In this document: in pieces, positions 31,368-45,322 of the stretch
Position numbering within the stretch: the stretch's first letter is position 1
Layout: every line of letters starts with the position of its first letter
IMG/VR virus record: IMGVR_UViG_3300049172_000080
Location: 1 to 64,000 of that record
DNA from: a virus
Length of the DNA: 64,000 nt
Strand: one strand, 5' to 3'
The notes under the pieces: generated by a model
What the model saw: the letters and a program-made list of their open reading frames with translations, nothing else
Databases searched by the model: none
Told to the model about the DNA's origin: nothing
Translations under genes and position numbers: made by a program

Positions 31368-31412
31368 CCGGAATCACCCCGGACTGTCGGCGGCAGCCGA
31401 TAACCTGCGGCC

Positions 31413-31664: not shown

Positions 31665-31699
31665 CCCCGGTTGTCAGTGCCTCGCGGTAGCTTCCCGAC

Positions 31700-32950: not shown

Positions 32951-32962
32951 TTTAATCAAATC
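32928..32962 (+). promoter_or_regulatory. consensus early promoter with embedded AT-rich dyad
   Basis: TTGCTG (32928-32933), 17 nt, TTTAAT (32951-32956); dyad GATTTAATCAAATC 32949-32962; overlaps the exonuclease stop; GACCAAGGAA at 32972. Confidence 0.65.
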
Positions 32963-32993
32963 AAGAACACCGACCAAGGAACGAGGACTAGAC

Positions 32994-33281: not shown

Positions 33282-33297
33282 CCCAGACCGCAGACCG

Positions 33298-33323
33298 GCC
33301 CCGGAGTCTCGTGACTCCGGGGC
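33298..33323. terminator. bidirectional hairpin terminator between convergent genes
   Basis: 11-bp stem GCCCCGGAGTC/GACTCCGGGGC, 4-nt loop, then TTCGTCGTG. Confidence 0.7.
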
Positions 33324-33332
33324 TTCGTCGTG

Positions 33333-34433: not shown

Positions 34434-34903
34434 GGCGGATCCCAGATCGCCCCGCCCAAGCCAGCGGGGACAGCGCTGAATTCGCAATCGGTCCACCGAC
34501 AGACGTCCTCGGCTGCCGGGCCGTACTGGACGTACCAGGCGTGGTCGTGGAGTCTCTCGTCGCTCTCGGAAGCCTCAGCCGCCCACTCTTCGTCTGTTGT
34601 CGCCCACTCGTCCCGGTGTGCGAGCAGGATACCGAAGCCCCGGATCTGCCTATCAGGATCGCGGCGGTACGGCGTCCCGGCTTCCATGACGAGGTCACCC
34701 AACTCGGGGTCGCGCATACGTGCGTCCAGTTCGGCGACCTTCGGGGCCGGGTTGCCTACAGTCACCGCATCGCGAAGGGCGCCCGCAACGATGATCATGT
34801 GTCGACGGAGGGCGGTTGCCTTGTCGTCCAGGTCCAGCAGACCATCTCTGCGCGCGGTTCCGGAGACGCCCTCGTAGGGCTGCGGGTATCGGGTGTCGCT
34901 CAA
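34430..34903 (-). CDS. hypothetical protein
   Basis: 157-aa ORF, TTG start after GAGGAA, coupled to int. Confidence 0.6.
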   Translation of the reverse strand: MSDTRYPQPYEGVSGTARRDGLLDLDDKATALRRHMIIVAGALRDAVTVGNPAPKVAELDARMRDPELGDLVMEAGTPYRRDPDRQIRGFGILLAHRDEWATTDEEWAAEASESDERLHDHAWYVQYGPAAEDVCRWTDCEFSAVPAGLGGAIWDPP

Positions 34904-34945
34904 GGTTCCTCATTCCGTGGTCGTGAGTGTCACGGCTGATGAGCC

Positions 34946-35092
34946 CTAGTCCTGAGGCAGCGCACCGGGCGGGATCACCAGCAGCCCACCGTCCACATGA
35001 TCAGGAGCGTCGCCATAGAGCACGATCTCAATTCCGCCGTCCGTTCGTTCCAGCTCCACCGTATTCACGAGTTGTGGGTCGCGTTCGTCCAT
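34946..35092 (-). CDS. small hypothetical protein (48 aa)
   Basis: ATG 35092 to TAG 34946, read by hand (below the ORF-track cut-off); weak SD. Confidence 0.3.
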   Translation of the reverse strand: MDERDPQLVNTVELERTDGGIEIVLYGDAPDHVDGGLLVIPPGALPQD

Positions 35093-35196
35093 GCGCTGAG
35101 CCTACCCGGGACCATGATCACGTGGACGCAAAACACACGTTTTGCGCTTCGCCCAGAGCGATTCTGCGAGAACGACGTTCTGTGCCATCCTCCGGG

Positions 35197-35231
35197 TTGT
35201 CCTCTGCGAGATCCCATGGTTTAATTAATTC
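35197..35231 (+). promoter_or_regulatory. consensus early promoter with embedded AT-rich dyad
   Basis: TTGTCC (35197-35202), 17 nt, TTTAAT (35220-35225); dyad GGTTTAATTAATTC 35218-35231; TCATCGGGCAGG leader; GACCAAGGAA at 35257. Confidence 0.7.
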
Positions 35232-35279
35232 ATCGGGCAGGATGAGCGGCCCGACTGACCAAGGAAAGAGGGACCGGCT

Positions 35280-35732
35280 GTGACTCGACGCGAGATGTCC
35301 AAGACGGAGCGCGCGGCCCGCGACGCAATGAAGCCCTACATCCGCGAGGGCCTCATCAGCCAGGGCGAGGCGAACAAGACGATCCGCGACAGCCTCGCCC
35401 TGGTGGAGAAGACCGTCCGGGACAACTACTCACCGGATCAGGCGTTCTACTACGCGGGCAAGATCGCAACGGCGCGCGAGGCGTTCGAGGCGCAGGAGAA
35501 CCCCGTGGTGCGTATCATCCTCCGGGGCAAACTGATGGGCTGGGAGATGTACGCGGCCGTCTACGTGGTGGTCCGCGAGGAGCACGGCGACACGGACGTC
35601 CCGATGGACCAGGCCGTGGAGACCATGGCCACCATCCGCGACACCGCGCGGGAGATGCGGACGGAGTCGCAGGCCTTCAAGGACATCGTCCGTGAGACCG
35701 AGCTGACGGCACCTGTGGAGGCCGCGCGATGA
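35280..35732 (+). CDS. hypothetical protein
   Basis: 150-aa ORF, GTG start. Confidence 0.65.
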   Translation: MTRREMSKTERAARDAMKPYIREGLISQGEANKTIRDSLALVEKTVRDNYSPDQAFYYAGKIATAREAFEAQENPVVRIILRGKLMGWEMYAAVYVVVREEHGDTDVPMDQAVETMATIRDTAREMRTESQAFKDIVRETELTAPVEAAR

Positions 35733-36250
35733 CCACACCCGAACGCCGCAGGGCGGACCGTCTCCAGGAGCAGGCCGACCGGCTCACGGCCAGGGCTGAG
35801 GGGATGCGCGAGCGGGCAGACGGCATGTACGGCCGGTTCGCCGGCGGACAGCCGCTGCTCGTCGGCCACCACTCCTACCGCTCCGCCCGGCGGACGAAGA
35901 ACCGTGCGGACGCGGCGTCCGACCGGGCGCTGGCCGCGTACACCGAGGCGAAGCAGGCACAGGCCAACGCGAAGTACGCCAAGGCCAAGGCGGACGCGAA
36001 GGACTCAATAGTCGAGAAGGTGTCCGCCCGGACCCGGCCGTGGCAGCGCTCGGATTTCCGGGTGGGCGACATCGTCACCGTGCGCACCTTCGAGACCGGT
36101 CAGGACACCTACCGGGTGAAGAGGGTCAACGCCAAGACGCTGACGCTGGACGGCGGCGGAGGTGGCTGGGACGACCCCCGCCGCGAGTACGACCGAGTCC
36201 TGTCCCGCACCCGGGACGGCGTCACCATCACCGACCCGGCCGAAGTCTGA
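35729..36250 (+). CDS. DUF3560-like protein
   Basis: ATGA overlap; GQPLLVGHHSYRSARR motif recalled from DUF3560; 173 aa. Confidence 0.6.
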   Translation: MTTPERRRADRLQEQADRLTARAEGMRERADGMYGRFAGGQPLLVGHHSYRSARRTKNRADAASDRALAAYTEAKQAQANAKYAKAKADAKDSIVEKVSARTRPWQRSDFRVGDIVTVRTFETGQDTYRVKRVNAKTLTLDGGGGGWDDPRREYDRVLSRTRDGVTITDPAEV

Positions 36251-36254
36251 CGGG

Positions 36255-36289
36255 TTGTGCCCCTGCCCGGACCATGATTTAATTAAGTC
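36255..36289 (+). promoter_or_regulatory. consensus early promoter with embedded AT-rich dyad
   Basis: TTGTGC (36255-36260), 17 nt, TTTAAT (36278-36283); dyad GATTTAATTAAGTC 36276-36289; TCATCGGGCAGG leader; GACCAAGGAA at 36309. Confidence 0.7.
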
Positions 36290-36332
36290 ATCGGGCAGGG
36301 GCCCGGCAGACCAAGGAAAGAAGGAACTGACC

Positions 36333-36695
36333 ATGAACGCCACCGCCACCCGCGCCGCCTCCTCCACCATGATCCGCATTGCCGCCGTCCTGCGTGAGCA
36401 CGAGGCGCTGCTGGCCAAGTACGGCGTGCACGGCATCGTCGGCGTCATCGCCTACATCACCGCCGACGGCTACGGCCGCCGCTACGACGCCGACAGCCCC
36501 CTGCCCGCCCTGGCCGTCCGCATCGGCCGCATCGGCTCCCACGTCGCCGGCGTCCGCCGCGTCAACCGCCGCATCGTCCAGACCCACGAGGTGAGCGAGG
36601 CCCGCATGCGCGACGGCATGCTGCTCCAGGACATCGCCAACACCCTCGACTCCCTGCGCATGGGCGGCGGGCCTGTCGGCCGCGTCAGCGCCTGA
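36333..36695 (+). CDS. hypothetical protein
   Basis: 120 aa from ATG 36333. Confidence 0.65.
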   Translation: MNATATRAASSTMIRIAAVLREHEALLAKYGVHGIVGVIAYITADGYGRRYDADSPLPALAVRIGRIGSHVAGVRRVNRRIVQTHEVSEARMRDGMLLQDIANTLDSLRMGGGPVGRVSA

Positions 36696-36703
36696 CCCCA
36701 GAC

Positions 36704-36749
36704 ACGACGAAGCCCCGGGACTCCACCACAGGTCCCGGGGCTTCGTCGT
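36704..36749. terminator. bidirectional hairpin terminator
   Basis: Perfect 18-bp stem ACGACGAAGCCCCGGGAC/GTCCCGGGGCTTCGTCGT, 10-nt loop, between convergent genes. Confidence 0.75.
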
Positions 36750-36758
36750 CGTGACTCG

Positions 36759-37139
36759 TTACACGAGCCAGTGCCGGCCACCAGCCGCACCGAAGGCGCC
36801 GACGTACACCTGGTGCGTGTAGTCGCCGGACTGCCAGCGTGTGCCCGCAGTGCCCGCGATGAAGCGATGGCACGTACGTTCGATAATACGGCGTAGCTCG
36901 GGGAACTGAAGGTTCAAGAGCAGACCCGACAGCTCCACCCCTTCCGGAGCGGGCAGGGCCGCCGCGTCCTCGTCCCCGGTCGCCTCGTGCACGGCGGCCC
37001 GGATGGCCAGGACGCGGACCGCGTCGGCCATGCTCCCGGCGACGTCCGGCATCTCCGGGTCAGCCATCCACCGGCCGTGGATCTCTGCCGCGCGGCAAGC
37101 GGTCATCGTGACGTCGGACAGAGTGCTGGTGGCGGCCAT
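36759..37139 (-). CDS. hypothetical protein (divergent from the GntR regulator)
   Basis: 126-aa ORF; SD GGAGGA. Confidence 0.65.
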   Translation of the reverse strand: MAATSTLSDVTMTACRAAEIHGRWMADPEMPDVAGSMADAVRVLAIRAAVHEATGDEDAAALPAPEGVELSGLLLNLQFPELRRIIERTCHRFIAGTAGTRWQSGDYTHQVYVGAFGAAGGRHWLV

Positions 37140-37155
37140 GCGGTCCTCCGTGTGT

Positions 37156-37169
37156 GATTTATCGAATTC
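37156..37169. promoter_or_regulatory. AT-rich dyad copy (GATTTATCGAATTC)
   Basis: In the divergent 140-bp region between 37139 and 37280. Confidence 0.4.
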
Positions 37170-37188
37170 ATGGGCATGCCCCTGTGAG

Positions 37189-37221
37189 ACTTCCTACAGG
37201 AAGCACCCTCCTGTAGGAAGT
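37189..37221. promoter_or_regulatory. perfect 13-bp inverted repeat, candidate GntR/HutC operator
   Basis: ACTTCCTACAGGA (37189-37201), 7-bp spacer, TCCTGTAGGAAGT (37209-37221). Confidence 0.6.
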
Positions 37222-37246
37222 TAGGGCACCGTTCCGGTACCGTCAA
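37218..37246 (-). promoter_or_regulatory. sigma70-type promoter for gene 36759..37139
   Basis: Minus strand: TTGACG (37246-37241), 17 nt, TAACTT (37223-37218); the -10 overlaps the right arm of the inverted repeat. Confidence 0.5.
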
Positions 37247-37279
37247 CCACATCCGATAGGAAGACCCGAGGAGCTAAGC

Positions 37280-37957
37280 ATGGCTGGCACCGTGGCACGC
37301 ATGGTCAATTACCTGAAAGCGCGCGTTGACCTGGGAACACTGAAGCCTGGCGACCGACTGCCACCCACCACCGCACTGATGAAGCAGTTCATGATCAGCG
37401 ACAACGCGGTCTACCGGGGAATCGCGCTCTTGAAGGCCGAGGGCTACGTCACCTCCCAGCAGGGCAAGGGGGTGTTCGTCGCCGACCGCCGCCGGCTCAT
37501 CGTGGGTGAGAAGCGGATCCAGGGCATTACGCAAGCCGGTGAGACGATCAACCACAAGCGCAGCGAACGCGTGCAGGCGCCGGACTGGGTCGCCGAGTTC
37601 CTCGGGGAGGGCGAGTGCGTGAATCGCGTTCGTACCGTGAGCCGTGGGGACGCGGTCGTGCAGGCGTCGCAGTCGTGGGTGCACCTCGCGGTTGCCGACG
37701 TCGTTCCCGAGATCGATGAGCCCCAGGCCTGCGACCCGACCTGGCAAGCCGTTTACCAGGACCGCTCGGGCAACCCCGTGAAGGTGGCGTCCAAGACGGG
37801 CATCGTCCGCACCACCACGGACGAGGAGCGTGAGGAGTTCGGCCTGGACGCCGACCGGGAGGTGCTGGCCGTCCGTAGCATCTACGTCACCGGCAATACG
37901 GTGATCGGTGTCGGCGAGGCCGCGTACGCGCCGGATAACCCTTTGATCATGTCCTGA
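37280..37957 (+). CDS. GntR-family transcriptional regulator (HutC/UTRA type)
   Basis: LKPGDRLPPTTALMKQFMISDNAVYRGIALLKAEGYVTSQQGKGVFV wHTH, plus a ~150-aa C-terminal effector-like domain. Confidence 0.8.
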   Translation: MAGTVARMVNYLKARVDLGTLKPGDRLPPTTALMKQFMISDNAVYRGIALLKAEGYVTSQQGKGVFVADRRRLIVGEKRIQGITQAGETINHKRSERVQAPDWVAEFLGEGECVNRVRTVSRGDAVVQASQSWVHLAVADVVPEIDEPQACDPTWQAVYQDRSGNPVKVASKTGIVRTTTDEEREEFGLDADREVLAVRSIYVTGNTVIGVGEAAYAPDNPLIMS

Positions 37958-37978
37958 GAGCGCATGCGTGCCCCACCC

Positions 37979-38009
37979 GAGCCCCGGAGCCTTCACGCTC
38001 CGGGGTTTC
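37979..38009 (+). terminator. hairpin terminator (left copy of the repeat flanking the RiPP cassette)
   Basis: GCCCCGGAGC/GCTCCGGGGT stem, 6-nt loop, TTCGTTGTGT. Confidence 0.65.
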
Positions 38010-38023
38010 GTTGTGTCGGAGAG

Positions 38024-38058
38024 TTGCATGCATCACACAACTGTGGTTTAATTAATCC
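38024..38058 (+). promoter_or_regulatory. consensus early promoter with embedded AT-rich dyad (drives the RiPP cassette)
   Basis: TTGCAT (38024-38029), 17 nt, TTTAAT (38047-38052); dyad GGTTTAATTAATCC 38045-38058. Confidence 0.65.
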
Positions 38059-38209
38059 ATGATCGGCGACCCGTGGGAGCTGGTCTTCCACGGCGTGAAC
38101 ACCGGCCGGGACTGAGTTCACGTACAGCCGACCACCCGGCGGAGAGCAAGGAACCAGGAACACAGGAACGGGTCGTCAACGCGCGGCCCCACAACAGAAG
38201 GACTACGTC

Positions 38210-38479
38210 ATGAGTGCTACGGCCACTCCGTTCGCTCTTCTCGTCGAGATTCCGGCACCTCCCGTCAACCGGACTCCGGCGTACACGTACGACAAGTCCC
38301 GCCAGCTCAACGTGACGGCGGCCGGTGACGCTGTGATCGACGTCAGTTCCGTCGCGGCCCCCTCGCACACGCACAACCACAAGGGCTGGAAGAAGGACGA
38401 CGACTGGGCGTCCCCGGACGGGCTGTTCGGACCGACGTTCACGCACAACGCCTCGGGTCACAAGAAGGACGACGACTGA
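38210..38479 (+). CDS. graspetide (omega-ester peptide) precursor with two core repeats
   Basis: 89 aa; SD AGAAGGA; leader-like TPFALLVE; cores SHTHNHKGWKKDDDW and TFTHNASGHKKDDD; immediately upstream of the ATP-grasp ligase. Confidence 0.7.
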   Translation: MSATATPFALLVEIPAPPVNRTPAYTYDKSRQLNVTAAGDAVIDVSSVAAPSHTHNHKGWKKDDDWASPDGLFGPTFTHNASGHKKDDD

Positions 38480-38481
38480 TC

Positions 38482-39489
38482 ATGCCTCTCACTCCCACAG
38501 TGCTCGTCATCAGCGCACCCGATGACCTGAGTGCAGATCTCGTGATACGGCAGATCCAGGAACGTGGAGTCAGCATTCACCGCGTCAACCCCGCTGACCT
38601 CGCGCGCCCGGGTCTCCTGCGAATGACCGGCATCTCGGACGAGGAACCCCTGAGGTTCAAGATCGACGATGGTCACCGCGTCACACTCTCGCAGTCGGTC
38701 GCGTCCGTTTTCTGGTGGCACCCGGATCCACCCAGCCGCTGGGAGGAGGGAGAGTCCAGGGCCATCCTGGAGGACTTCCTTTACGGTCTCGATGACGTCC
38801 TGTGGGTCAACCACCCGCGCCGGGCCCAAGCGGCTCGGCCGGGCCCTCGGCAACTGAACATCGCGGCATCTCTGGGCTTCCGTACCCCGCCCGCGCTCTA
38901 CACCAACGACCCCGTCCAGGCTGCCGCCTTCGCCCGGGAGCAAGGCGGGCAGGTTGTGTGCAAGACACTCACTGCGCACCCTGACCGGTTCGTTCAGGCA
39001 CGGCTCACGACCGCCGAGGAGATCGAGGCCGCCGCAAACAGCGTGCGTCAGAACGTCGGCTACTTCCAGAAGCCGGTGGACAAGGTATGCGACGTCCGCT
39101 TAACCGTGGTCGGTGACCGGGCGTTCCCTTGCAGGATCACGTCCCCCGGCGCACTGGACTGGAGGGCGGTGCCTGAGACGGGCCTGGGTTTCGAGGTAGT
39201 GGGTATCAGCCTGCCCTTAAACCAGAAGGTTCAGAAACTCATGCAGGTTCTGGGTCTGGAGTACGCGGCGCTGGATTTCGCCGTCGACCAGAACGGCACC
39301 TGGTGGTTCCTGGAGGCGAACCCGGCCGGCCAGTTCGGGTTCGTGGAGGCCGCGACCGGCATGGTCATCTCACGAGCCATCTCTGATCACCTCGTGCAGA
39401 CCGCTCTGGCAACCCACGTCTACACCCCCGGCGGCGGCCACCACGCCTCTTCCGGGGCCCCGTGGCAGCGGGGTGGCGCCGACCGCTGA
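38482..39489 (+). CDS. ATP-grasp RiPP maturase (MvdC/MvdD-like macrocyclase)
   Basis: TVLVISAPDDLSADLVIRQIQERGVSIHRV N-terminus; central VVCKTL.. ATP-grasp body; YAALDFAVDQNGTWWFLEANPAGQFGFVE C-terminal motif. Confidence 0.8.
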   Translation: MPLTPTVLVISAPDDLSADLVIRQIQERGVSIHRVNPADLARPGLLRMTGISDEEPLRFKIDDGHRVTLSQSVASVFWWHPDPPSRWEEGESRAILEDFLYGLDDVLWVNHPRRAQAARPGPRQLNIAASLGFRTPPALYTNDPVQAAAFAREQGGQVVCKTLTAHPDRFVQARLTTAEEIEAAANSVRQNVGYFQKPVDKVCDVRLTVVGDRAFPCRITSPGALDWRAVPETGLGFEVVGISLPLNQKVQKLMQVLGLEYAALDFAVDQNGTWWFLEANPAGQFGFVEAATGMVISRAISDHLVQTALATHVYTPGGGHHASSGAPWQRGGADR

Positions 39490-39507
39490 GCGCATGTGCG
39501 CCCCACC

Positions 39508-39535
39508 GGCCCCGGAGCGAAGATGCTCCGGGGCC
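39508..39535 (+). terminator. hairpin terminator (right copy of the flanking repeat)
   Basis: 11-bp stem GGCCCCGGAGC/GCTCCGGGGCC, 6-nt loop, TTCGTGTGTG. Confidence 0.7.
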
Positions 39536-39622
39536 TTCGTGTGTGAGTAGGCGAAATAGACCTTTCGACGTATGGTGCCCCGCGTCCCCCAGACTTCCTC
39601 GGGTCAGGGTGCACAGGGGTGC

Positions 39623-39658
39623 GTGAGCCCCGCTGGTGTGGTGGCCAGCGGGGCTCAC
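39623..39658 (+). promoter_or_regulatory. perfect 14-bp stem hairpin in the 5' leader of gene 39688
   Basis: GTGAGCCCCGCTGG (39623-39636) / CCAGCGGGGCTCAC (39645-39658), 8-nt loop, 30 nt before the ATG. Confidence 0.5.
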
Positions 39659-39687
39659 GTGCGAACCGCTGCCGACGGGAGAACGAG

Positions 39688-40419
39688 ATGCCCCGGGACT
39701 GGCTGCTCCGCCAGAACAGCGAACTGCGCCGTGAAGGCATATTCAACTGGAGTCTCCCGGCTTGGGCGGGCCGGCTCCCCGACGGCCGGACGTACAACAC
39801 GTGTCCCTCCGCTTCCGCCTGCGCACCGCTCTGTTACGCGCGGCAGGGGACCTACCGCTTCCCGGGCGTCCTCGCCGCGCATGAGCGCAACCTCATGATG
39901 ATTCTGGACGACCTGCCCGGCTGGGAGCGGCGGATGGAAGAGGAGCTAAACCATCCACGTTTCCGGGGCAACCACGTGCGCATCCACGACAGTGGGGATT
40001 TCCTCAGCTTGGAGTACCTGGACGCCTGGCTGCGCATCATGCGCTACGTCCCTGCGACCTCCTTCTACGCGTACACCAAGGAGATCACCCTGTTTCGCGA
40101 GAGGGTGGAACCCGATCCGCCGGCGAACTTCCACTGGTGCTACTCCCTGGGTGGTACGCAGGACCGCCTCATCGACCGCGAGCACGACCGTCACGCCGAC
40201 GTCTTCCCCGACGAAGGCGCCATCGCTGAGGCAGGGTATGCCTCACAAGAGAAGTCCGATCTTCTGGCCATCTACGGCCCGCCGAAGATGGGCATCCCCG
40301 CCAACAACATCCGCCACCTGCGCCGCCGTCAGGGCATGGCCAGCTTCGGCGACTTGCAGGAGCAGCGTGACAACCGCCGACGCGGTCCCGGCAAGCAGTA
40401 CCGCCCCGGGCGGCCGTAG
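39688..40419 (+). CDS. Cys-containing hypothetical protein (possibly phage gp88-like family)
   Basis: ATG 39688 after GGGAGA; NWSLPAWAG..TCPSASACAPLCYARQGTYRF; family name from unverified recollection. Confidence 0.55.
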   Translation: MPRDWLLRQNSELRREGIFNWSLPAWAGRLPDGRTYNTCPSASACAPLCYARQGTYRFPGVLAAHERNLMMILDDLPGWERRMEEELNHPRFRGNHVRIHDSGDFLSLEYLDAWLRIMRYVPATSFYAYTKEITLFRERVEPDPPANFHWCYSLGGTQDRLIDREHDRHADVFPDEGAIAEAGYASQEKSDLLAIYGPPKMGIPANNIRHLRRRQGMASFGDLQEQRDNRRRGPGKQYRPGRP

Positions 40420-40494
40420 CCCGTTTGCCGTGAAAACGGCTATTCGGATGATCGCGGCTACCATGCCCTCCGATCCGAACCGGGGAGGTATGCC

Positions 40495-42351
40495 GTGCCG
40501 TGGTACGACGCATTCCGGGGGCGTGTGGCCCGGGAGCCTGCCCCGCTGCCCCAGTCGCCGCCGGAGGCGCTGACGGCCGCCGCTGCTCCGCCTCCCGGCC
40601 CCGAGACCAAGTTCCTGCGCCGCACAGAGCAGTGGCAGGAGGAGGTCTGGCGCTTCCACGACACGCTCGGCGAGTTCAATTACGGCGTCGGGTGGTTGGC
40701 CAACATGCTGTCCCGGGTGCGCCTGCGCGCCGGCCGCCTGAAGCCGGGCTCCGATGAACCGGACATCGTCACCTCCGGTACGGCCGCTGACCTGATGATG
40801 CTGTTCGGCGGAGGGGTCGCCAGTCAGTCACAGCTCATGAGGCGCCTGACCGTACAGCTCTCCCTCCCGGGCGAGGGGTACCTGGTCGGCGAGACAGTGG
40901 GCAAGACCGAACGCTGGCAGGTCCGTTCCGTCGACGAGATCCGCGTGCAGTCCGGCAAATACCAGGTGATGGACGAAGAAAGCGCCACCACCGGCCAGGA
41001 CTGGCGCGACCTCGCCGAGGATCACCACGTCGTCCGCGTCTGGCGCCCGCACGACCGGTACTACCACATGGCAGACTCCCCGGCGCGCAGCGCCCGCGAC
41101 ATCATGCGAGAGCTGGAGCTGGTCAACCGGAAGATCACGGCCGAGTACCTCTCCCGCCTGGCCTCCGCCGGACTCCTCCTGCTCCCCGATGAGCTGAGCT
41201 TCCCGGTCCGCGAGGAGTTCGCCAACGACCCGGACAATGCCAACCCGCTGATGTCCGAGTGGATCGAGATTGCCGCGACGGCGATCCAGAACCCGGGAAC
41301 CGCGTCCGCCGTGGTTCCCATTCCGCTGGTCGGTCCGGCCGAGGCGATCGACAAGGTCAAGCACGTCGACTTCACGTTGAAGATCGACGAAAAGATTATC
41401 GAGAAGCGGGACAGCGCGATCAAGCGCCTGGCAACCAAGTTGGACATGCCGGCCGACGTGCTACTGGGTCTGGGTGACGTCAACCACTGGTCTGCCTGGC
41501 AGTTGGAGGAGGGCGCTCTCAAGACGCATATCGCCCCCATCGCTGAGCTGATCTGCGACGCCCTCACGCGCGGCTATCTCCAGCCCCGGCTGGAGGCGTC
41601 CGGCGAGGATCCGGCCGCCTGGGTCGTCTGGTACGACATGAGCGAGCTGGCTCTGAGCCCGGACCGCAGCGGCAACGCGACTCTGGCCTACGACCGGATG
41701 GAGCTGGGTGGCGCCGCGTACCGGCGAGAGCTGGGGTTCGACGAGGACGACGCGCCTTCGCCCGAAGACTTGAAGGAACAGGCCCTGAAGGTCATCATCC
41801 GCACGCTGCCGTCCGGCGCCGCGTCCGCCCTCGCCCAGCTCATCAGCGAGGACGTCCCGCAGATCGTCCCCGTCTCCCCGCAGGACCCCGGGACCGCCGA
41901 GGCCGTGCAGCAAGGCGACACCCCGCCGCCGGCGAACCAGCAGCCGACCGAGGAGGGCGCGGGCCGCGCGGCGCCGCCGTCCGACGAGCCGTCGCCGACG
42001 CAGGACCGCACCGGGCCGCCCTCCCGGGACCAGCGCGCCACGGCCGAGCGGGCGCAGCTCCTCGTGCAGCAGGCCCGGACGCAGCACATGCTCCGAGTCG
42101 GTGCGGCCAACCGGTGGGACCTGCTGCATCCCGGCATCTGCGGCGAGCACGAGTACTCCTGCCCGTTCACACACGCAGTCGCCACGGCGGCCCCGTCCGT
42201 ACGGCCCGGGACGTCGGGGACGTACCTGTGCCACCTGGACGCCTTCGGCCGCCTAGTTCTCGACGGCCGTAGTCCCTACGCGGACACCGCCGCCATGATC
42301 TCCACGTCACTGGTACCGAGGGCGGTGAACGGCCATGCCCCCGCGCACTGA
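40495..42351 (+). CDS. portal protein
   Basis: 618 aa, GTG after GGGGAGG; position ahead of MuF/protease/capsid; general resemblance to actinophage portals. Confidence 0.7.
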   Translation: MPWYDAFRGRVAREPAPLPQSPPEALTAAAAPPPGPETKFLRRTEQWQEEVWRFHDTLGEFNYGVGWLANMLSRVRLRAGRLKPGSDEPDIVTSGTAADLMMLFGGGVASQSQLMRRLTVQLSLPGEGYLVGETVGKTERWQVRSVDEIRVQSGKYQVMDEESATTGQDWRDLAEDHHVVRVWRPHDRYYHMADSPARSARDIMRELELVNRKITAEYLSRLASAGLLLLPDELSFPVREEFANDPDNANPLMSEWIEIAATAIQNPGTASAVVPIPLVGPAEAIDKVKHVDFTLKIDEKIIEKRDSAIKRLATKLDMPADVLLGLGDVNHWSAWQLEEGALKTHIAPIAELICDALTRGYLQPRLEASGEDPAAWVVWYDMSELALSPDRSGNATLAYDRMELGGAAYRRELGFDEDDAPSPEDLKEQALKVIIRTLPSGAASALAQLISEDVPQIVPVSPQDPGTAEAVQQGDTPPPANQQPTEEGAGRAAPPSDEPSPTQDRTGPPSRDQRATAERAQLLVQQARTQHMLRVGAANRWDLLHPGICGEHEYSCPFTHAVATAAPSVRPGTSGTYLCHLDAFGRLVLDGRSPYADTAAMISTSLVPRAVNGHAPAH

Positions 42352-45322
42352 CCACCAGCACCCGCCGCTCGTGACGGCAGCCGCCGACGGCTCGCACACG
42401 CAGGGCTGCATGATCGCCCTCATGCCGGCGGCAGAGAACGCAGAACGCTTGGCGATACCGGGCGGGGAACCGGCCGAGGAGCTGCACTGCACGCTGCGCT
42501 ATCTGGGCAAGGCAGACACGCACGGCGCTGACGCGCGCACGTCCCTCATAGAGGAGATGCGCAGGCTCAGCCGAGATCTTCCGCCGATCACGTCCAAGAT
42601 CTTCGGGGCCGCGCACTGGAACGGTAATGGCCCCGAGCCGTCATGGGTGTGGTCCGTAGGGGACCTGCCTGACGGGGTGTCTTTGAACGCCGCTCACGAG
42701 ATGGCCAACGAAGCCGTGTGGGCGACGGCCCTTGAAGTCCCCCGACCGCACAGCCCCTGGGTCGCCCACATCTGCGCCGCGTACAGCGATGACCCGGAAT
42801 TCCTCGCGGAGATGGAGCAGCGGCTCGGCGAGGTGACGTTCGACCGCATCCGGGTCAGCTTCGGTGACGAAGACCACGACATCCCGCTGACCGGCGACGC
42901 GGTGACGGCCGCCGCCGGGCCGTTGCGTCGGGAGCCGACCGAGCTGGAGATGGCTTCGCGCGTCGACTTCGCCTCCGTGCACCGCGAGTGGGAGGCGGCG
43001 ACGAACCGGGCGATGCAGTCACTGAGGTCTACGACGGCCGCCTGGCGCCTGGACCTGCGGCAGCAAATCGCCCGCGACCTCGCCGACGACGCCCTGGACT
43101 CCATCCCCGAGCTGACCCTGGACAGCCGGGCCGCCACGGCCACGCTGCTCAGCCTCATGGAGGAGTACGCGGTCAAGGCCGGTCGGGCGTGCCAGCGCGA
43201 GGCGGAGCAGCAAGGCATCGCCGTGCCGGACTGGTCACTGCCCGACGGCGGCGAAGACGCGGTCACCGCCGCGCTCACCGGGCGGCGACTGCTGACGTCC
43301 GTCGCGGAGCTGACCAGCGACCTCATGTCCGGCGCATTGCTGACGGCCGCGAAGCGGAAACTCTCCGGCCTGCTGCGCTCGAACCGGCCGACGAACCAGA
43401 TCGCTGCCGAGGTGGATCGGGAGCTGGCCACGGTCGACGACACCACCGTGCGCGCCGCCGTGGGCTCCGCGATGACGGCCGCTCAGAACGCCGGACGGTA
43501 CGCCGTGATGGAAGCCGCTCCGCTGGCGCAGTCGTACGTGGCCAGCGAGATCCTGGACCGCCGCACGTGCGAGCCGTGCAAGGACATCGACGGCCGTACC
43601 TTCACCTCCCTGGACGGCGCCGTGGCGGAGTACCCGGTCATGGGCTACCGCGACTGCACCGGCGCCCGCTACGGCAACGCCTGTCGTGGCTTCATCATCG
43701 CCGTCTGGCAGGAAGTGCGAAGCCCGGCGACTACGGCGAGCGCCGATACCCAACCGGCCGCACAGGACGCGGCGAAAGGAGATCAGTCCATGACGACCGA
43801 AGCAGCGACCGAAGCGACCGAGGCCCTGAGCAAGGGCGACCCGAACCCTGGCACGCCGAAGGACAAGCGGCTCAAGGAGAACCAGAAGGCGGCCGAGGAG
43901 AAGCAGTGCCCGCCCGGCATGGAGCTGGACGAGGAGTCTGGCGAGTGCGTGCCGGAGTCCGATGAGGAAGAGGCGGCCGGGGGCACGACGGCGCTGCGCG
44001 GCGAGCACGGCCCGGAGACCCTGGCCCACGGCGCGGCGGCTGACGCCGAGAAGGTGACCGGCCCGCCGGTCAGCGAGATGGGCGCCGGGGACACCGCGCC
44101 GTGGCGTGGCCCGCTGACCGTGGAGGGCATAGAGACCGGCGACGGCCGCGAGTTCAAGCCGGACGCACTCACCTGGGCTGATCTGCCTCTGCCGCTGCGC
44201 TGGAACAAAGAGGACTCCCACGGCGGGGAACCGCACACCGTGGCGGTCAATGTCGGCCGCATCGACAAGGTGTGGCGCGAGGACGGCGGCCTGGTCATGG
44301 GCGAGGGCGTGCTGGACCTGTCCACCGAGGACGGCCGCACCGTCCACGGCAAGATCAAGGGCCAATTCCTGCGCGGGGTGTCCGTGGACGTTGACTCCAT
44401 CAAGGACGCCGACATGGAGCTGGTGTGGCCGGCCGACCCGGACGCCGACGGCGAGGGCTCCCCGTTCGACATGCTGTTCGCGTCGCCGGAAAAGGTGGTT
44501 TTCAACCGAGGCCGCATCCGCGCGGCGACGCTGGTGGACATCCCGGCGTTCGCCGAGGCGTACATCGCGTTGCTGGACGAGGCGGGGGCCGTCGTCGCCG
44601 GCGGGGAGCCGATCGGCGCGGTGCGTGAGACGCGTGTCCGGTCGGTTCAGGCGCGCACGGTGGAGGCGCCGCTGCGTCCGCCGGCCGGCTGGTTCGCCAA
44701 CCCGGGTCTGTCCGTGCCGACGGGGATTACCGTCACGCCGGAGGGTCGGGTCTACGGGCACGCCGCGCTGTGGGGGACGTGTCACATCGGGCAGGAGGGT
44801 GTGTGCGTCACCCCGCCGCACGAGGAGTCCCACCCGTACTACATGACCGGCAACGTCTGGACGGAGGACGGCTCGTCGGTGTCCGTCGGCCAGATCACCG
44901 TCGGCACCGGGCACGCGCCACTGTCCTACGGCTACCGGGCGGCGGCTGACCATTACGACAACACCGGCGCGGCCGTGGCCGACGTCGCGGTGGGCAACGA
45001 CGCGCACGGTATCTGGGTCGCCGGGTCCATCCGCCCCAAGACCCCGGAGTCGCGCATCCACGAGCTGCGCGCGGCTGGTCAGGTGTCCGGCGACTGGCGC
45101 CGCATCGGCGGGAACCTGCGCCTGGTGGGTCTGCTCGCGGTGAACGTCCCCGGCTTCCCGGTCCCCAAGCTGAAGACGCACCTGACGTCCGGTCAGCAGC
45201 TCGCCCTCGTCGCGGCGGGTATCCCGCAGCTCAGTGAATCGCTGAGCGAGGAGGAGCTGGACCAGTGGGCTTACCGCCGCGTCCTCAAGACCCTGTCCCG
45301 ACAGGTACACGGAGAGGAGTGA
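42335..45322 (+). CDS. 2H-phosphoesterase / MuF-like head morphogenesis / capsid maturation protease fusion ORF
   Basis: N-term LHCTLRYLG and PWVAHICAAY (HxTx / HxCx); MuF motif ILDRRTCEPCKDIDGRTF; internal AAAGGAGA-ATG at 43790; protease-like GIETGDGREF..LPLPLRWN and GHAALWGTCHIG; no stop between the modules. Confidence 0.7.
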   Translation: MPPRTDHQHPPLVTAAADGSHTQGCMIALMPAAENAERLAIPGGEPAEELHCTLRYLGKADTHGADARTSLIEEMRRLSRDLPPITSKIFGAAHWNGNGPEPSWVWSVGDLPDGVSLNAAHEMANEAVWATALEVPRPHSPWVAHICAAYSDDPEFLAEMEQRLGEVTFDRIRVSFGDEDHDIPLTGDAVTAAAGPLRREPTELEMASRVDFASVHREWEAATNRAMQSLRSTTAAWRLDLRQQIARDLADDALDSIPELTLDSRAATATLLSLMEEYAVKAGRACQREAEQQGIAVPDWSLPDGGEDAVTAALTGRRLLTSVAELTSDLMSGALLTAAKRKLSGLLRSNRPTNQIAAEVDRELATVDDTTVRAAVGSAMTAAQNAGRYAVMEAAPLAQSYVASEILDRRTCEPCKDIDGRTFTSLDGAVAEYPVMGYRDCTGARYGNACRGFIIAVWQEVRSPATTASADTQPAAQDAAKGDQSMTTEAATEATEALSKGDPNPGTPKDKRLKENQKAAEEKQCPPGMELDEESGECVPESDEEEAAGGTTALRGEHGPETLAHGAAADAEKVTGPPVSEMGAGDTAPWRGPLTVEGIETGDGREFKPDALTWADLPLPLRWNKEDSHGGEPHTVAVNVGRIDKVWREDGGLVMGEGVLDLSTEDGRTVHGKIKGQFLRGVSVDVDSIKDADMELVWPADPDADGEGSPFDMLFASPEKVVFNRGRIRAATLVDIPAFAEAYIALLDEAGAVVAGGEPIGAVRETRVRSVQARTVEAPLRPPAGWFANPGLSVPTGITVTPEGRVYGHAALWGTCHIGQEGVCVTPPHEESHPYYMTGNVWTEDGSSVSVGQITVGTGHAPLSYGYRAAADHYDNTGAAVADVAVGNDAHGIWVAGSIRPKTPESRIHELRAAGQVSGDWRRIGGNLRLVGLLAVNVPGFPVPKLKTHLTSGQQLALVAAGIPQLSESLSEEELDQWAYRRVLKTLSRQVHGEE

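What the first reader, a model, noticed from the sequence alone, without database searches (positions are those of the whole stretch)
37955..39550. Phage-borne graspetide (ATP-grasp RiPP) cassette with a two-core precursor, bracketed by ~60-bp direct repeats
SEEN.
- Layout: after terminator 37979-38009, a consensus promoter (TTGCAT-17-TGGTTTAAT, 38024-38052) precedes an 89-aa ORF (38210-38479). A 335-aa ORF (38482-39489) starts 2 nt after its stop and is followed by terminator 39508-39535.
- Small ORF: it has a TPFALLVE leader-like motif and two C-terminal cores, SHTHNHKGWKKDDDW and TFTHNASGHKKDDD. These carry an exact 17-nt DNA repeat, AAGAAGGACGACGACTG, at 38390-38406 and 38462-38478. The cores are clusters of Thr/Ser, Lys and Asp.
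- Large ORF: it begins TVLVISAPDDLSADLVIRQIQERGVSIHRV and ends YAALDFAVDQNGTWWFLEANPAGQFGFVE, the pattern of MvdC/MvdD/RimK-type RiPP ATP-grasp ligases.
- Flanks: the DNA right after the GntR stop (37955-38020) and right after the ligase stop (39487-39550) are imperfect direct repeats: TGAG..CGCATGYG..GCCCCACC..GCCCCGGAGC-loop-GCTCCGGGG..TTCGT.GTGT.

ESTABLISHED. Such ligases install Thr/Ser-Asp/Glu ester and Lys-Asp/Glu amide macrocycles in graspetides (microviridins, marinostatin, plesiocin). Many graspetides are protease inhibitors, and PFFARFL-like leader motifs guide the ligase.

INFERENCE.
- This is a complete, independently transcribed RiPP cassette, acquired as a moron by recombination or duplication at a terminator.
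- A virus-encoded graspetide with a THNxxGxKKDDD core would be a new context and possibly a new core family.
- It could inhibit host or competitor proteases during lysogeny or infection.
- No leader peptidase or exporter is present.
- The promoter geometry would place the transcription start at or near ATG 38059, which opens an 18-codon ORF (MIGDPWELVFHGVNTGRD). This leaderless reading is speculative.
Basis: partly seen in the sequence, partly recalled or inferred. Interest (0 to 1): 0.85.

Follow-up and report, generated by a model that had tools for sequence, protein, structure and literature searches.

The report
Phage-carried graspetide peptide gene cassette
A temperate Streptomyces phage carries a self-contained two-gene unit (a small precursor peptide plus an ATP-grasp enzyme predicted to tie it into rings); the same unit sat in a phage or prophage in nearly every copy whose surroundings could be read (at least four unrelated backbones), making it a previously undescribed, largely phage-borne branch of a known peptide natural-product class whose function is still unknown.

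Summary
The cassette is real. An 89-aa precursor (38210-38479) and a 335-aa ATP-grasp ligase (38482-39489) form a two-gene graspetide unit between two stable terminator hairpins, behind a conserved promoter.

The ligase is a RiPP macrocyclase: full-length TIGR04187 match, best structural match PruB (the prunipeptin ligase), with RimK far behind. The precursor leader is homologous to the PF14404 "Strep_pep" leader of graspetide group 11. Both score below curated cutoffs, and databases call the clade "hypothetical".

The core [ST]xT[HIV]NxxGxKKDDD ends exactly at the C-terminus in 27 of 28 unique precursors. It is duplicated in the phage subclade.

The unit sits in a phage or prophage in nearly all sampled copies, across at least four backbones, always beside a regulator gene. 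Close relatives lack it, and one shows a clean empty site. The moron reading is supported.

Corrections:
- Only about 20 nt of the flanking "60-bp repeats" is specific to the pair.
- The exact 17-nt repeat is expected from codon bias.
- The promoter belongs to the phage's own promoter family.
- The 18-codon ORF is a relic of another gene's 3' end.
- Two GenBank records in the phage collection also hold unannotated graspetide-like cassettes.

Crosslinks, expression timing and function are untested. Verdict: a new variant of a known kind.

The parts
37958..37977 (+). Pre-hairpin 20-mer GAGCGCATGCGTGCCCCACC, directly after the GntR stop codon. This is the left copy of the only flank repeat that is specific to the pair.
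   Evidence: It matches 39488-39507 at 18/20. No other copy within 4 mismatches occurs in the window. It is absent from relative L001.
37981..38005 (+). Terminator hairpin after the GntR gene (GCCCCGGAGC, loop, GCTCCGGGG, then a TTTCGTTGTGT tail). It marks the left boundary of the cassette module.
   Evidence: It folds at -24.3 kcal/mol with z = -4.5. Hairpins of the same type occur at 17667, 33299 and 39510. DNA identity to the nearest phage, L006, falls from 90% to 76% at this point.
38024..38058 (+). Promoter-like block: -35 TTGCAT (38024-38029), a 17-nt spacer, and an extended -10 TGGTTTAAT (38044-38052) that overlaps the palindrome TTAATTAA.
   Evidence: The block is nearly identical in L006, L007 and L009, although their upstream genes differ. 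It is one of 5 full copies of a phage promoter family in the window; the core motif gives 11 matches where 0.19 are expected. The family recurs throughout related phages. Transcription itself was not tested.
38066..38208 (+). 5' leader. It also carries three GGAAC repeats.
   Evidence: A local DNA alignment to L002 9592-9726 (the end of its 247-aa gene plus the intergenic region) scores 59, against 17.9 +/- 2.6 for shuffles. The peptide traces PWELVF...YSRPPGGE parallel GPWELTF...YNRPPGDE*. The ORF opening at the same ATG is 49, 67 or 37 aa in relatives. The region has no significant RNA fold (z = 0.85) and no Rfam match.
38197..38202 (+). Shine-Dalgarno-like GAAGGA, 7 nt before the precursor ATG.
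   Evidence: Read from the sequence. GAAGG is conserved upstream of the precursor in all aligned relatives.
38210..38479 (+). Graspetide precursor gene (89 aa). The leader spans about residues 1-51 and holds the P-F-A-L-L (Phhxh) motif and the RQLNVT...GDAV.DV block.
   Evidence: Residues 6-44 match PF14404 (22.6 bits, cutoff 25) and TIGR04186 (20.8 bits, cutoff 25). hhalign against a canonical Strep_pep precursor gives 95% probability, E = 3.5e-8. Eleven homologues have 35 invariant positions. Median dN/dS is 0.42.
38363..38404 (+). Core 1 (residues 52-65), SHTHNHKGWKKDDD.
   Evidence: T54, H55, N56, G59, K61, K62, D63, D64 and D65 are invariant in the 11-sequence alignment. Core 1 is absent or degenerate in single-core relatives.
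38435..38476 (+). Core 2 (residues 76-89), TFTHNASGHKKDDD, ending at the C-terminus. Its KKD codons also form a GAAGGA (38464-38469) 12 nt before the ligase ATG.
   Evidence: A core ending exactly at the C-terminus is present in 27 of 28 unique family precursors. The DNA AAGAAGGACGACGACTG is identical in all 8 loci examined.
38482..39489 (+). ATP-grasp graspetide macrocyclase gene (335 aa), translationally coupled to the precursor by a 2-nt gap.
   Evidence: TIGR04187 gives 242.7 bits, E = 5e-72, over profile positions 1-311 of 312. MvdC gives 120 bits, MvdD 88 and RimK 46. PDB sequence hits are 9bou, MdnB, AMdnB, MdnC, CdnC and PsnB. The AlphaFold2 model has pLDDT 81.8, and Foldseek ranks PruB, AMdnB, MdnC, CdnC, MdnB and PsnB at ranks 1-32, ahead of RimK. 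Median dN/dS is 0.21.
39488..39507 (+). Pre-hairpin 20-mer GAGCGCATGTGCGCCCCACC, the right copy. It overlaps the ligase stop codon.
39509..39534 (+). Terminator hairpin after the ligase gene, followed by CTTCGTGTGTGAGTAGG.
   Evidence: It folds at -29.3 kcal/mol with z = -5.3. The sequence from here onward matches what follows the single post-GntR hairpin in the cassette-less relative L037.
39619..39662 (+). Large perfect hairpin (19-bp stem) at the right edge of the low-identity cassette module, upstream of the GP88-like gene.
   Evidence: It folds at -42.3 kcal/mol with z = -6.4. It is conserved in L001 and in the empty-site relative L037. The identity block shared with L006 ends at 39663.

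Best explanation
This is a two-gene graspetide biosynthetic cassette carried as a moron by a temperate Streptomyces phage of about 95 kb.

Anatomy (shown). The order is: terminator hairpin; a phage-type promoter; a leader of about 150 nt that contains a relic of another gene; the precursor gene; the translationally coupled ATP-grasp ligase gene; a second terminator hairpin.

Chemistry (inferred from the enzyme family).
- The ligase docks on the conserved leader of the 89-aa precursor, through the PFALL motif and the RQLNVT block.
- It uses ATP to activate Asp side chains of the C-terminal DDD triads as acyl phosphates.
- These are captured by Thr/Ser hydroxyls (omega-esters) and possibly by Lys amines (omega-amides). 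Each of the two [ST]xT[H]NxxGxKKDDD cores closes into a small loop or hairpin macrocycle, and each link costs 18 Da.
- The most likely pattern is at least one Thr-to-Asp ester per core closing the HNxxGxKK loop, plus either a second [ST]-to-Asp ester or a Lys-to-Asp isopeptide.

Evolution (shown). The cassette is a separately recombining module. It is present or absent among close phage relatives. It also occurs in at least three other temperate-phage backbones, always beside a regulator gene and in most of them close to the integrase.

Function (inferred, weak). The product is an intracellular or lysis-released macrocyclic peptide. It most plausibly acts as a protease inhibitor, as characterised graspetides do, and benefits the phage or the lysogen.
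For: Enzyme identity
- The TIGR04187 match is full-length, with E = 5e-72. MvdC and MvdD are next, and RimK scores only 46 bits.
- All six PDB sequence hits are graspetide macrocyclases.
- With the AlphaFold2 model (pLDDT 81.8), Foldseek ranks 1-32 are PruB, AMdnB, MdnC, CdnC, MdnB and PsnB. RimK and LysX appear only from rank 33.
- The ATP-grasp motifs are invariant across 29 clade members and align with MdnB and PruB: K161, R206, D226-W227-R228, D265, E278 and N280.
- A neighbour-joining tree nests the clade inside the actinobacterial RiPP maturases.

Precursor identity
- The leader matches PF14404 and TIGR04186. It aligns to a canonical Strep_pep precursor with 95% probability.
- It has the Phhx(1,2)h leader motif described for graspetides (PMC8939145).
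- Donor residues lie N-terminal to acceptor residues.
- The core is conserved in 27 of 28 unique precursors.
- Both genes are under purifying selection.
- The two genes stay adjacent in every intact locus.

Moron status
- Both flanking hairpins are stable, and the promoter block is conserved.
- In the close phage family, six other members carry the cassette and six lack it.
- The empty-site relative L037 has one hairpin after GntR, followed directly by the sequence that lies downstream of the ligase in the window.
- DNA identity to the nearest phage drops from about 90% to 76% exactly across 37979-39663.
- The same cassette occurs in other backbones: L002; L106; and L107, L108 and L004.

Function by analogy
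- Microviridins and plesiocin are serine-protease inhibitors, and plesiocin's potency rises with the number of cores (PMC13097080).
Against: - No chemistry was observed. Crosslink number, type and positions are inferred.
- Both proteins score below the curated family cutoffs: 242.7 against 350 for TIGR04187, 22.6 against 25 for PF14404 and 20.8 against 25 for TIGR04186.
- The cassette holds no leader peptidase and no exporter, so where and in what form the product acts is unknown.
- No bioactivity of a group-11 graspetide came up in the papers I read. The protease-inhibitor idea therefore rests on other graspetide groups.
- Expression timing is unknown. The promoter belongs to a phage-wide family that could be lytic or lysogenic.
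- The core always ends in an acidic C-terminus, which would also suit a tailing enzyme (see the rival explanations).
- Whether the cassette was inserted here or deleted from relatives cannot be polarised for this particular lineage.
Confidence: 0.85

Rival explanations
1. The ATP-grasp enzyme is a C-terminal tailing ligase of the RimK type and not a macrocyclase. It would add amino acids, such as Glu or Asp, to the acidic KKDDD C-terminus of the small protein, much as RimK extends ribosomal protein S6.
For: In 27 of 28 unique precursors a core ends exactly at the C-terminus in an acidic run. RimK-family models do match weakly: TIGR00768 at 46 bits, and PHROG 2599 'S6 glutaminyl transferase' at E = 2.4e-14. 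RimK and LysX also appear among the structural matches from rank 33.
Against: The RiPP macrocyclase models score far higher (243 bits against 46). Every top sequence and structure hit is a macrocyclase. The precursor has a long conserved leader that is homologous to graspetide leaders. The internal core 1 is conserved although it is not C-terminal. Thr and Lys donors are conserved at fixed spacing from DDD.
Confidence: 0.05
2. The cassette is an anti-phage or superinfection-exclusion module expressed from the prophage. The macrocyclic peptide would block a rival phage's protease, or another step of its infection, and so protect the lysogen.
For: In all four backbones the cassette lies beside a regulator gene, and in most of them close to the integrase: a GntR, NsdA-like, XRE-like or HTH_31/DUF397 regulator. 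It is insulated by its own promoter and terminator. It is variably present among close relatives, as defence morons are. Papers listed in the searches report anti-phage lanthipeptides in Streptomyces and protease-inhibiting antiviral peptides (titles and abstracts only).
Against: No PADLOC model matches the ligase, the precursor or three neighbouring proteins. Nothing shows expression in lysogens. The promoter is of the same type as those in front of ordinary phage genes. No target is known.
Confidence: 0.15
3. The peptide is a phage signalling molecule. It would be a modified peptide sensed by the neighbouring HTH-TPR (NsdA-like) or GntR/UTRA regulator to tune the lysis-lysogeny decision, by analogy with arbitrium and other RRNPP systems.
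For: In L007, L008 and L106 the cassette directly follows an HTH+TPR regulator (NsdA family, 284 bits for the homologue in L039). TPR and HTH/DUF5753 regulators are reported as recurrent neighbours of actinobacterial graspetide loci (PMC8939145; PMC13097080).
Against: The regulator type varies independently of the cassette: GntR in the window, XRE-like in L002, and the NsdA-like regulator without any cassette in L039. I saw no secretion signal when reading the precursor (no predictor was run), and the cassette has no exporter or processing protease. The peptide is much longer and more conserved than known phage signalling peptides.
Confidence: 0.05
4. The cassette is ancestral to this phage family and was lost in some members, so it is not a horizontally acquired moron. 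The terminator similarity is then just the family's standard terminator.
For: Seven of 13 sampled close family members, counting the window, carry it in the same slot. The hairpins and tails are generic. Polarity cannot be read from a single empty site.
Against: The same cassette sits in at least three unrelated phage backbones. Within the family it diverges more than both of its flanks, with sharp boundaries. The ligase similarity order (L005 > L006) disagrees with the flank similarity order (L006 > L005). The cassette carries a relic of a gene that precedes it in another backbone. More distant relatives lack the whole island.
Confidence: 0.15

Closest known systems
Graspetide group 11: prunipeptin type (PruA/PruB) from Streptomyces, with PF14404 'Strep_pep' precursors; 3,324 BGCs in the 2026 RODEO survey (PMC13097080)
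   Same: It is a two-gene precursor-plus-ATP-grasp unit. PruB (PDB 9bou) is the best sequence and structure match to the ligase. The leaders are homologous: PFAL...P.PP...TYD..RQ.N...G, hhalign probability 95%. The THN and C-terminal DDD core elements are shared with canonical ...SATHNDDD and ...SKTHNDDD precursors. DUF397/DUF5753 regulator pairs lie next to several copies, as reported for group 11.
   Different: The ligase is only about 31-38% identical to canonical members and forms its own clade. Both proteins fall below the curated HMM cutoffs, and databases name them 'hypothetical'. The core has a loop and a Lys pair (xxGxKK) between THN and DDD, and it lacks the long Ser/Thr-rich stretch. 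The core is duplicated in the phage subclade. Nearly every sampled copy sits in a phage or prophage. Prunipeptin's reported bicyclic link pattern (one ester plus one isopeptide) is recalled from memory; I could not read that paper here.
Graspetide group 13: graspimiditides (albusimiditide, fuscimiditide, amycolimiditide)
   Same: It is an actinobacterial ATP-grasp lineage covered by the same TIGR04187 model. The products have hairpin (stem-loop) topologies built from TxT...DxD ester pairs (bioRxiv 10.1101/2023.06.21.545981). A conserved His lies next to the donor region. A group-13-like locus (L109) turned up among the ligase homologues.
   Different: Group 13 almost always has a PIMT-type O-methyltransferase and a loop Asp-Gly aspartimide site. 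The window cassette has neither. The ligase is followed directly by a terminator, and no methyltransferase appears beside the ligase in the neighbourhood tables of the four other backbones.
Multi-core graspetides such as plesiocin (group 2)
   Same: Core motifs are repeated within one precursor and processed by a single ligase. Each repeat forms a small hairpin-like macrocycle, and inhibitor potency rises with repeat number (PMC13097080 introduction).
   Different: The ligase lineage is different (PsnB is about 20% identical). The core chemistry is different (TTxxxxEE). Those BGCs are bacterial and often include transporters.
Phage morons and prophage-borne RiPP clusters (for example bacteriocin BGCs in prophages, and class I lanthipeptide clusters in Streptomyces prophages)
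   Same: It is an accessory unit with its own promoter and terminator, inserted between conserved phage genes and variably present among relatives. Prophage-encoded RiPP clusters are documented (bioRxiv 10.1101/2020.10.01.322628; PMC10023795).
   Different: Neither survey mentions ATP-grasp or graspetide clusters. Here a whole ligase clade is found almost only on phages. The cassette lies in a hypervariable slot built from reiterated terminator-plus-promoter joints.

Membership tests
Graspetides (ATP-grasp-modified RiPPs) | The ligase belongs to the MvdC/MvdD/PsnB-type macrocyclase lineage, with a pre-ATP-grasp leader-binding domain and intact ATP-grasp catalytic motifs. | tested here: met
   TIGR04187 matches at E = 5e-72 over profile positions 1-311 of 312. 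All PDB sequence hits are macrocyclases. Foldseek ranks 1-32 are macrocyclases. K161, R206, the DWR motif, D265, E278 and N280 are invariant in 29 homologues.
Graspetides (ATP-grasp-modified RiPPs) | An adjacent small precursor gene with a conserved leader (Phhx(1,2)h motif) and a core in which Thr/Ser/Lys donors lie N-terminal to Asp/Glu acceptors. | tested here: met
   The leader has P-F-A-L-L, and the cores are [ST]xT...KKDDD. The motif definition comes from PMC8939145. The two genes are adjacent in all intact loci.
Graspetides (ATP-grasp-modified RiPPs) | Side-chain omega-ester and/or omega-amide macrocycles are actually installed, each costing 18 Da. | not testable with these tools
   This needs co-expression and mass spectrometry.
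Group 11 (prunipeptin / Strep_pep) | The precursor passes the PF14404 (or TIGR04186) curated threshold. | tested here: not met
   PF14404 gives 22.6 bits against a cutoff of 25, and TIGR04186 gives 20.8 against 25. The leader is still homologous (hhalign probability 95%, E = 3.5e-8).
Group 11 (prunipeptin / Strep_pep) | The synthetase is recognised by the curated maturase model or groups with PruB-type enzymes. | tested here: inconclusive
   TIGR04187 gives 242.7 bits against a cutoff of 350. PruB is the best PDB match at 32% identity. The clade is a separate branch in the neighbour-joining tree. The published sequence-similarity-network criterion (alignment score 70) was not run.
Group 11 (prunipeptin / Strep_pep) | A C-terminal core of the ...THNDDD type. 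| tested here: inconclusive
   THN and the terminal DDD are present, but xxGxKK separates them. Canonical examples (L110, L011) have them contiguous.
Group 13 (graspimiditides) | A PIMT-type O-methyltransferase in the cluster, and an Asp-Gly (Asp-Xaa) aspartimide site in the loop. | tested here: not met
   In the window the ligase is followed directly by a terminator and there is no methyltransferase; none appears beside the ligase in the neighbourhood tables of the four other backbones either. The loop is HNxxGxKK. The contrast case L109 does have a PCMT gene.
Phage moron | An accessory unit with its own promoter and terminator between conserved phage genes, present in some close relatives and absent in others. 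| tested here: met
   The hairpins are stable and the promoter block is conserved. Six other close family members carry the cassette and six lack it. There is an empty-site junction in L037 and a bounded identity drop. Promoter activity itself was not tested.
RimK-type C-terminal amino-acid ligases | A match to the RimK family model at its curated threshold, with a substrate that is a folded protein's C-terminus. | tested here: not met
   TIGR00768 gives 46 bits against a cutoff of 143.4. RimK structures rank below all macrocyclases.
Known anti-phage defence systems (PADLOC) | A match to a defence-system protein model. | tested here: not met
   There are no hits for the ligase, the precursor, GntR, the GP88-like protein or g36759 at E <= 0.01.

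The most novel reading that the evidence does not exclude
A whole clade of graspetide cassettes is a phage-specialised effector system. Temperate Streptomyces phages would swap it through reiterated terminator-plus-promoter joints and express it beside their regulator and integrase genes. The macrocyclic product would then act on a phage-relevant target. One option is a rival phage's (or the host's) protease, giving superinfection exclusion or control of host development. Another is that the peptide is the ligand of the adjacent HTH-TPR or GntR regulator, in a modified-peptide lysis-lysogeny signalling circuit.
Probability: 0.12. Interest if true: 0.85.

Novelty: new variant of a known kind. 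Interest (0 to 1): 0.6.

Why it matters
- Graspetides are known as bacterial natural products, mostly protease inhibitors. Surveys of phage and prophage BGCs report bacteriocins and lanthipeptides but no graspetides.
- This ligase-plus-precursor clade is missed by curated annotation: every member is named 'hypothetical' and both proteins fall below the HMM cutoffs. Nearly every sampled copy rides on a temperate Streptomyces phage, in at least four backbones.
- It gives RiPP chemists a compact, untested core. It is 14 residues long, naturally duplicated, and has Thr, Lys and Asp in a new arrangement, with a small two-gene system that is easy to express.
- It gives phage biologists a candidate lysogenic-conversion or phage-competition factor. 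Two culturable carrier strains exist: S. africanus NRRL B-24243 and Streptomyces sp. NRRL S-455.
- The locus also shows how morons are shuffled in this phage family: through repeated terminator-plus-promoter joints in one hypervariable slot between the regulator gene and the portal gene.

Tried and rejected
- Near-identity DNA search of the region against 50,697 phage records gave no match. The phage is only distantly related to deposited phages, with portal identity of 35% or less.
- GntR as part of the cassette: rejected. The gene upstream of the cassette in L002 is unrelated. Regulators vary independently of the cassette.
- The GP88-like gene as a partner: rejected. It occurs without the cassette in L041, L046 and L048, and the cassette occurs without it in L006, L008 and L009.
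- A methyltransferase partner (group 13): none in the window, and none beside the ligase in the other backbones' neighbourhood tables.
- The 18-codon leaderless ORF: rejected as a gene.
- The exact 17-nt repeat as evidence of a recent DNA duplication: rejected, because codon bias explains it.
- A riboswitch or structured RNA in the 5' leader: no Rfam hit and no significant fold.
- Defence-system models: none match.
- A tRNA-like stretch upstream of the L015 cassette: ARAGORN finds no tRNA there, so I make no att-site claim.
- Literature searches for the KKDDD core and for phage graspetides found no description. The prunipeptin paper and PDB entry 9BOU could not be read in the library.
- The viral structure library has no close analogue of the ligase (best TM 0.56 or lower, RimK-like).
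- L017 (a MAG): the ligase is present, but an IS605/TnpB element sits upstream and no intact precursor was found. It is a degenerate copy.

Full report
**1. What is in the sequence**

The window is 68.7% G+C. It encodes a tailed temperate phage:
- primase/polymerase (10454-14950)
- terminase large subunit (27524-29893)
- DnaQ-like exonuclease (31700-32950)
- tyrosine integrase (33333-34496, minus strand)
- GntR/UTRA regulator (37280-37957)
- GP88-family protein (39688-40419)
- portal (40495-42351)
- MuF/protease fusion, major capsid protein and tape measure

An 89-aa ORF lies at 38210-38479. A 335-aa ORF at 38482-39489 starts 2 nt after its stop. Strong hairpins lie at 37981-38005 and 39509-39534 (-24.3 and -29.3 kcal/mol; none of 200 shuffles folds as well). 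TTGCAT, a 17-nt spacer and TGGTTTAAT lie at 38024-38052.

**2. The two genes form a graspetide pair**

*Ligase*
- It matches TIGR04187 (ATP-grasp ribosomal peptide maturase) end to end, with E = 5e-72.
- The next models are MvdC (120 bits) and MvdD (88 bits). RimK reaches only 46 bits.
- All six PDB sequence hits are graspetide macrocyclases: 9bou, MdnB, AMdnB, MdnC, CdnC and PsnB.
- An AlphaFold2 model built on the clade alignment has pLDDT 81.8 and pTM 0.77.
- By Foldseek it superposes best on PruB of S. coelicolor (E = 1.6e-27), then AMdnB, MdnC, CdnC, MdnB and PsnB. RimK and LysX appear only from rank 33.
- The classical ATP-grasp residues are invariant in 29 homologues and align with MdnB and PruB: K161, R206, D226-W227-R228, D265, E278 and N280.

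*Precursor*
- Residues 6-44 match PF14404 "Strep_pep" (22.6 bits) and TIGR04186 (20.8 bits). Both are just under the cutoff of 25.
- A profile of 11 homologues aligns to a canonical PF14404 precursor with 95% probability (E = 3.5e-8) across the leader.
- The leader carries the P-F-A-L-L form of the Phhx(1,2)h motif that characterises graspetide leaders (PMC8939145).

*Selection.* Both genes are under purifying selection. Median dN/dS is 0.42 for the precursor and 0.21 for the ligase.

**3. The core and its family**

An exhaustive profile search of 1.84 billion representative proteins found only 10 precursor clusters. Pooling these with the precursors read from fetched loci gives 28 unique sequences.
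- 27 of the 28 have a core [ST]-x-T-x(5-13)-[KR]-[KQR]-D-D-[DA] that ends exactly at the C-terminus.
- 18 have two such cores and 9 have one.
- The usual 14-residue form is [ST]xT[HIV]NxxGxKKDDD.
- The sister lineage (ligase 44% identical) keeps the TxT and KKDDD elements but has a longer loop, TMTDSSGNGGTGPKKDDD. This fits a stem-loop in which the ends are constrained and the loop is free.
- Canonical group-11 precursors end in ...SATHNDDD or ...SKTHNDDD. The phage-clade core therefore looks like that motif with xxGxKK inserted between THN and DDD.

**4. Predicted chemistry (inferred)**

The family mechanism is as follows. The ligase recognises the leader. It uses ATP to phosphorylate an Asp side chain. 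A Thr/Ser hydroxyl or a Lys amine then attacks the acyl phosphate.

I predict at least one Thr-to-Asp ester per core. A second link would be one of two kinds:
- a second [ST]-to-Asp ester, using the TxT...DxD registry shown for albusimiditide;
- a Lys-to-Asp isopeptide, as I recall for prunipeptin. That recollection is from memory, and the paper could not be read here.

**5. Place among known graspetides**

The 2026 RODEO survey assigns prunipeptin to group 11. That group has 3,324 BGCs, PF14404 precursors in essentially all of them, and DUF397/DUF5753 regulator pairs in 15-19% of neighbourhoods (PMC13097080). This is the nearest described group.

The window's ligase differs from it in three ways:
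- It is only about 31-38% identical to canonical members.
- It forms its own clade of 29 sequence clusters at 59-100% identity, with a gap down to 44% or less.
- Every named member of the clade is called "hypothetical protein".

Group 13 (graspimiditides) is excluded. There is no PIMT methyltransferase and no Asp-Gly loop site.

**6. Genomic context**

*Where the cassette occurs.* The same cassette occupies the same slot in a family of contigs of about 64-96 kb: L005/L013, L006, L007, L008/L010 and L009/L014. Two of these are stand-alone contigs in isolate assemblies, from S. africanus NRRL B-24243 and Streptomyces sp. NRRL S-455.

It also occurs in three other backbones:
- L002 is a phage-like "plasmid". 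The cassette lies after an integrase and an XRE-like gene, next to lysis and tail genes.
- L106 is a prophage. The order is tape measure, CHAP lysin, HTH+TPR (NsdA-like) regulator, cassette, then Lsr2, Toprim, RusA and DnaB.
- L107, L108 and L004 are prophages. The cassette follows an HTH_31/DUF397 pair and precedes early genes, Lsr2 and DUF3987. L108 also shows the serine integrase upstream.

Two copies do not give a phage reading. L015 lies next to chromosomal genes (CstA, NUDIX) and its context stays unclear. L017 is a degenerate copy with an IS605/TnpB element upstream and no intact precursor.

*Where it is missing.* A portal-based search found close family members without the cassette: L037, L039, L041, L043, L046 and L048. 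More distant relatives go from terminase through two small genes to portal, with no island at all.

*The empty site.* In L037 the GntR stop is followed by a single GCCCCGGAGC hairpin. The sequence after that hairpin matches the sequence that follows the ligase terminator in the window.

*Module boundaries.* Against the nearest phage, L006, DNA identity behaves as follows:
- 90.4% up to the GntR stop
- 76.2% across 37979-39663
- 88.3% from 40412 onward

The cassette is therefore a separately recombining module bounded by hairpins.

**7. Corrections to details**

(a) *The 17-nt exact repeat.* It is expected from KKDDD plus codon bias, with a probability of about 0.39.

(b) *The flanking repeats.* Only about 20 nt are specific to the pair. 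The hairpin and tail are a generic terminator that also occurs at 17667 and 33299.

(c) *The promoter.* It is one of five full copies in the window of GGGTTGYnc, about 17 nt of spacer, cATGGTTTAATTAAT, CATCGG, and then the RBS GACCAAGGAA.
- The copies are at 15214, 29922, 35218, 36276 and 38045.
- The core motif gives 11 matches where 0.19 are expected.
- The family recurs throughout related phages, often just after a terminator hairpin. It forms reiterated terminator-plus-promoter joints between accessory genes.
- The cassette-linked copies share their own subtype...GTTGCRTGCATCACACAAC...CCATGATCG.

(d) *The 18-codon ORF.* It is not a gene.
- The other promoter copies read CATCGG at the point where this copy reads CATGATCGG.
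- In relatives the ORF opening at the same ATG is 49, 67 or 37 aa long.
- The segment 38066-38208 is homologous to the 3' end of the 247-aa XRE-like gene that precedes the cassette in L002. The alignment scores 59, against 17.9 +/- 2.6 for shuffles.
- Homologues of that gene occupy the regulator slot in L043 and L046.

**8. Novelty and limits**

No paper in the searchable library describes a phage-borne graspetide or this core.

The context is not unique, however:
- Leptospira phage record KF114876 has a 37-aa ORF rich in Thr/Lys and Asp/Glu. It overlaps the start of an ATP-grasp gene that scores 245 bits on TIGR04187.
- GenBank record MT835913, labelled "UNVERIFIED: Bacteriophage sp.", has a five-core, 184-aa precursor-like ORF next to a ligase scoring 260 bits.
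- IMG/VR contigs L011 and L012 carry cassettes with TIGR04187-type ligases; L011's precursor is of the canonical group-11 type.

Still untested are the crosslinks, leader removal, export, timing of expression and biological role. Protease inhibition is an analogy to other graspetide groups. No defence-system model matches.

Noticed in passing
window 15214-15227, 29922-29935, 35218-35231, 36276-36289, 38045-38058 (weaker copy at 3299-3312): A phage-wide promoter-like element: GGGTTGTcc, about 17 nt of spacer, cATGGTTTAATTAAT, tCATCGG, and then the RBS GACCAAGGAA. These five sites account for every TTAATTAA in this 68.7% G+C window, and each lies upstream of a + strand gene. The element recurs many times in related phages. 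It may be recognised by the host RNA polymerase or by a phage factor, and the palindrome could also be an operator.
   Followed up: partly
window ~31400-40420: The whole stretch between the small genes after the terminase and the portal gene is a variable island. It holds the exonuclease, the integrase, small ORFs, the regulator, the cassette and GP88. Relatives with portal identity of 70% or less go from terminase through two small genes straight to portal. In close relatives the regulator slot holds a GntR, a 261-aa GntR-like protein, a ~247-aa XRE-like protein or a 423-aa NsdA-family HTH-TPR protein.
   Followed up: partly
window 39619-39662: A perfect 19-bp-stem hairpin (-42.3 kcal/mol) lies upstream of the GP88-like gene. 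It is conserved in relatives with and without the cassette or GP88. Its role (terminator, recombination joint or regulatory site) is unknown.
   Followed up: partly
window 39688-40419: A GP88-family protein (PF17338, E = 8.8e-60) with a Cys-rich N-terminal motif (CPSASACAPLCYA). Among relatives it is present or absent independently of the cassette, so it is another moron in the same slot.
   Followed up: partly
L103 2886-3960 (KF114876.1 59005-60079) and L104 2428-3957 (MT835913.1): Two GenBank records in the phage collection (MT835913 is labelled UNVERIFIED) hold unannotated graspetide-like cassettes. The Leptospira phage has a 37-aa ORF (MFLVTKTDTIREVDDDMNFNNLTYLLTKTEENKEQDE) overlapping the start of an ATP-grasp gene (TIGR04187, 245 bits). 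The human faecal contig has a 184-aa ORF with five T[RK]T...QEG.DDD repeats next to an ATP-grasp gene (260 bits).
   Followed up: partly
L002 and L003 (Streptomyces sp. GDS52 plasmid contig JBQQCR010000003.1, 126,646 bp): The cassette and its neighbours appear twice on this contig, about 87.8 kb apart, with identical gene order. The 'plasmid' contig may therefore be a more-than-unit-length assembly of a circular or terminally redundant phage genome or phage-plasmid of about 88 kb.
   Followed up: no
window 38462-38478 and the same position in L002, L005-L009 and L015: The DNA encoding the C-terminal KKDDD plus the stop (AAGAAGGACGACGACTG) is identical in all 8 loci examined, whereas the first-core copy varies at synonymous sites. 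It contains GAAGGA 12 nt before the ligase ATG. It may be under dual constraint, as coding sequence and as the ligase ribosome-binding site.
   Followed up: partly
window 21658-22746 and 24067-25149: Two ORFs match PHROGs annotated as queuine tRNA-ribosyltransferase-like (phrog_6059 and phrog_24024) and 'nucleotide-sugar epimerase' (phrog_540, E = 8e-76). This could point to a DNA or nucleotide modification module in the phage.
   Followed up: no
L017 8076-9326 (MAG contig CAVQGD010000026.1): An IS605/TnpB (OrfB) element sits immediately upstream of a clade ligase that has no intact precursor. This looks like a decaying copy of the cassette.
   Followed up: partly
window 42335-45322: The 995-aa protein after the portal combines an N-terminal region matching phage 'RNA ligase' PHROGs (residues 12-186) with MuF-like and head-maturation-protease-like regions. 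This is an unusual fusion.
   Followed up: no
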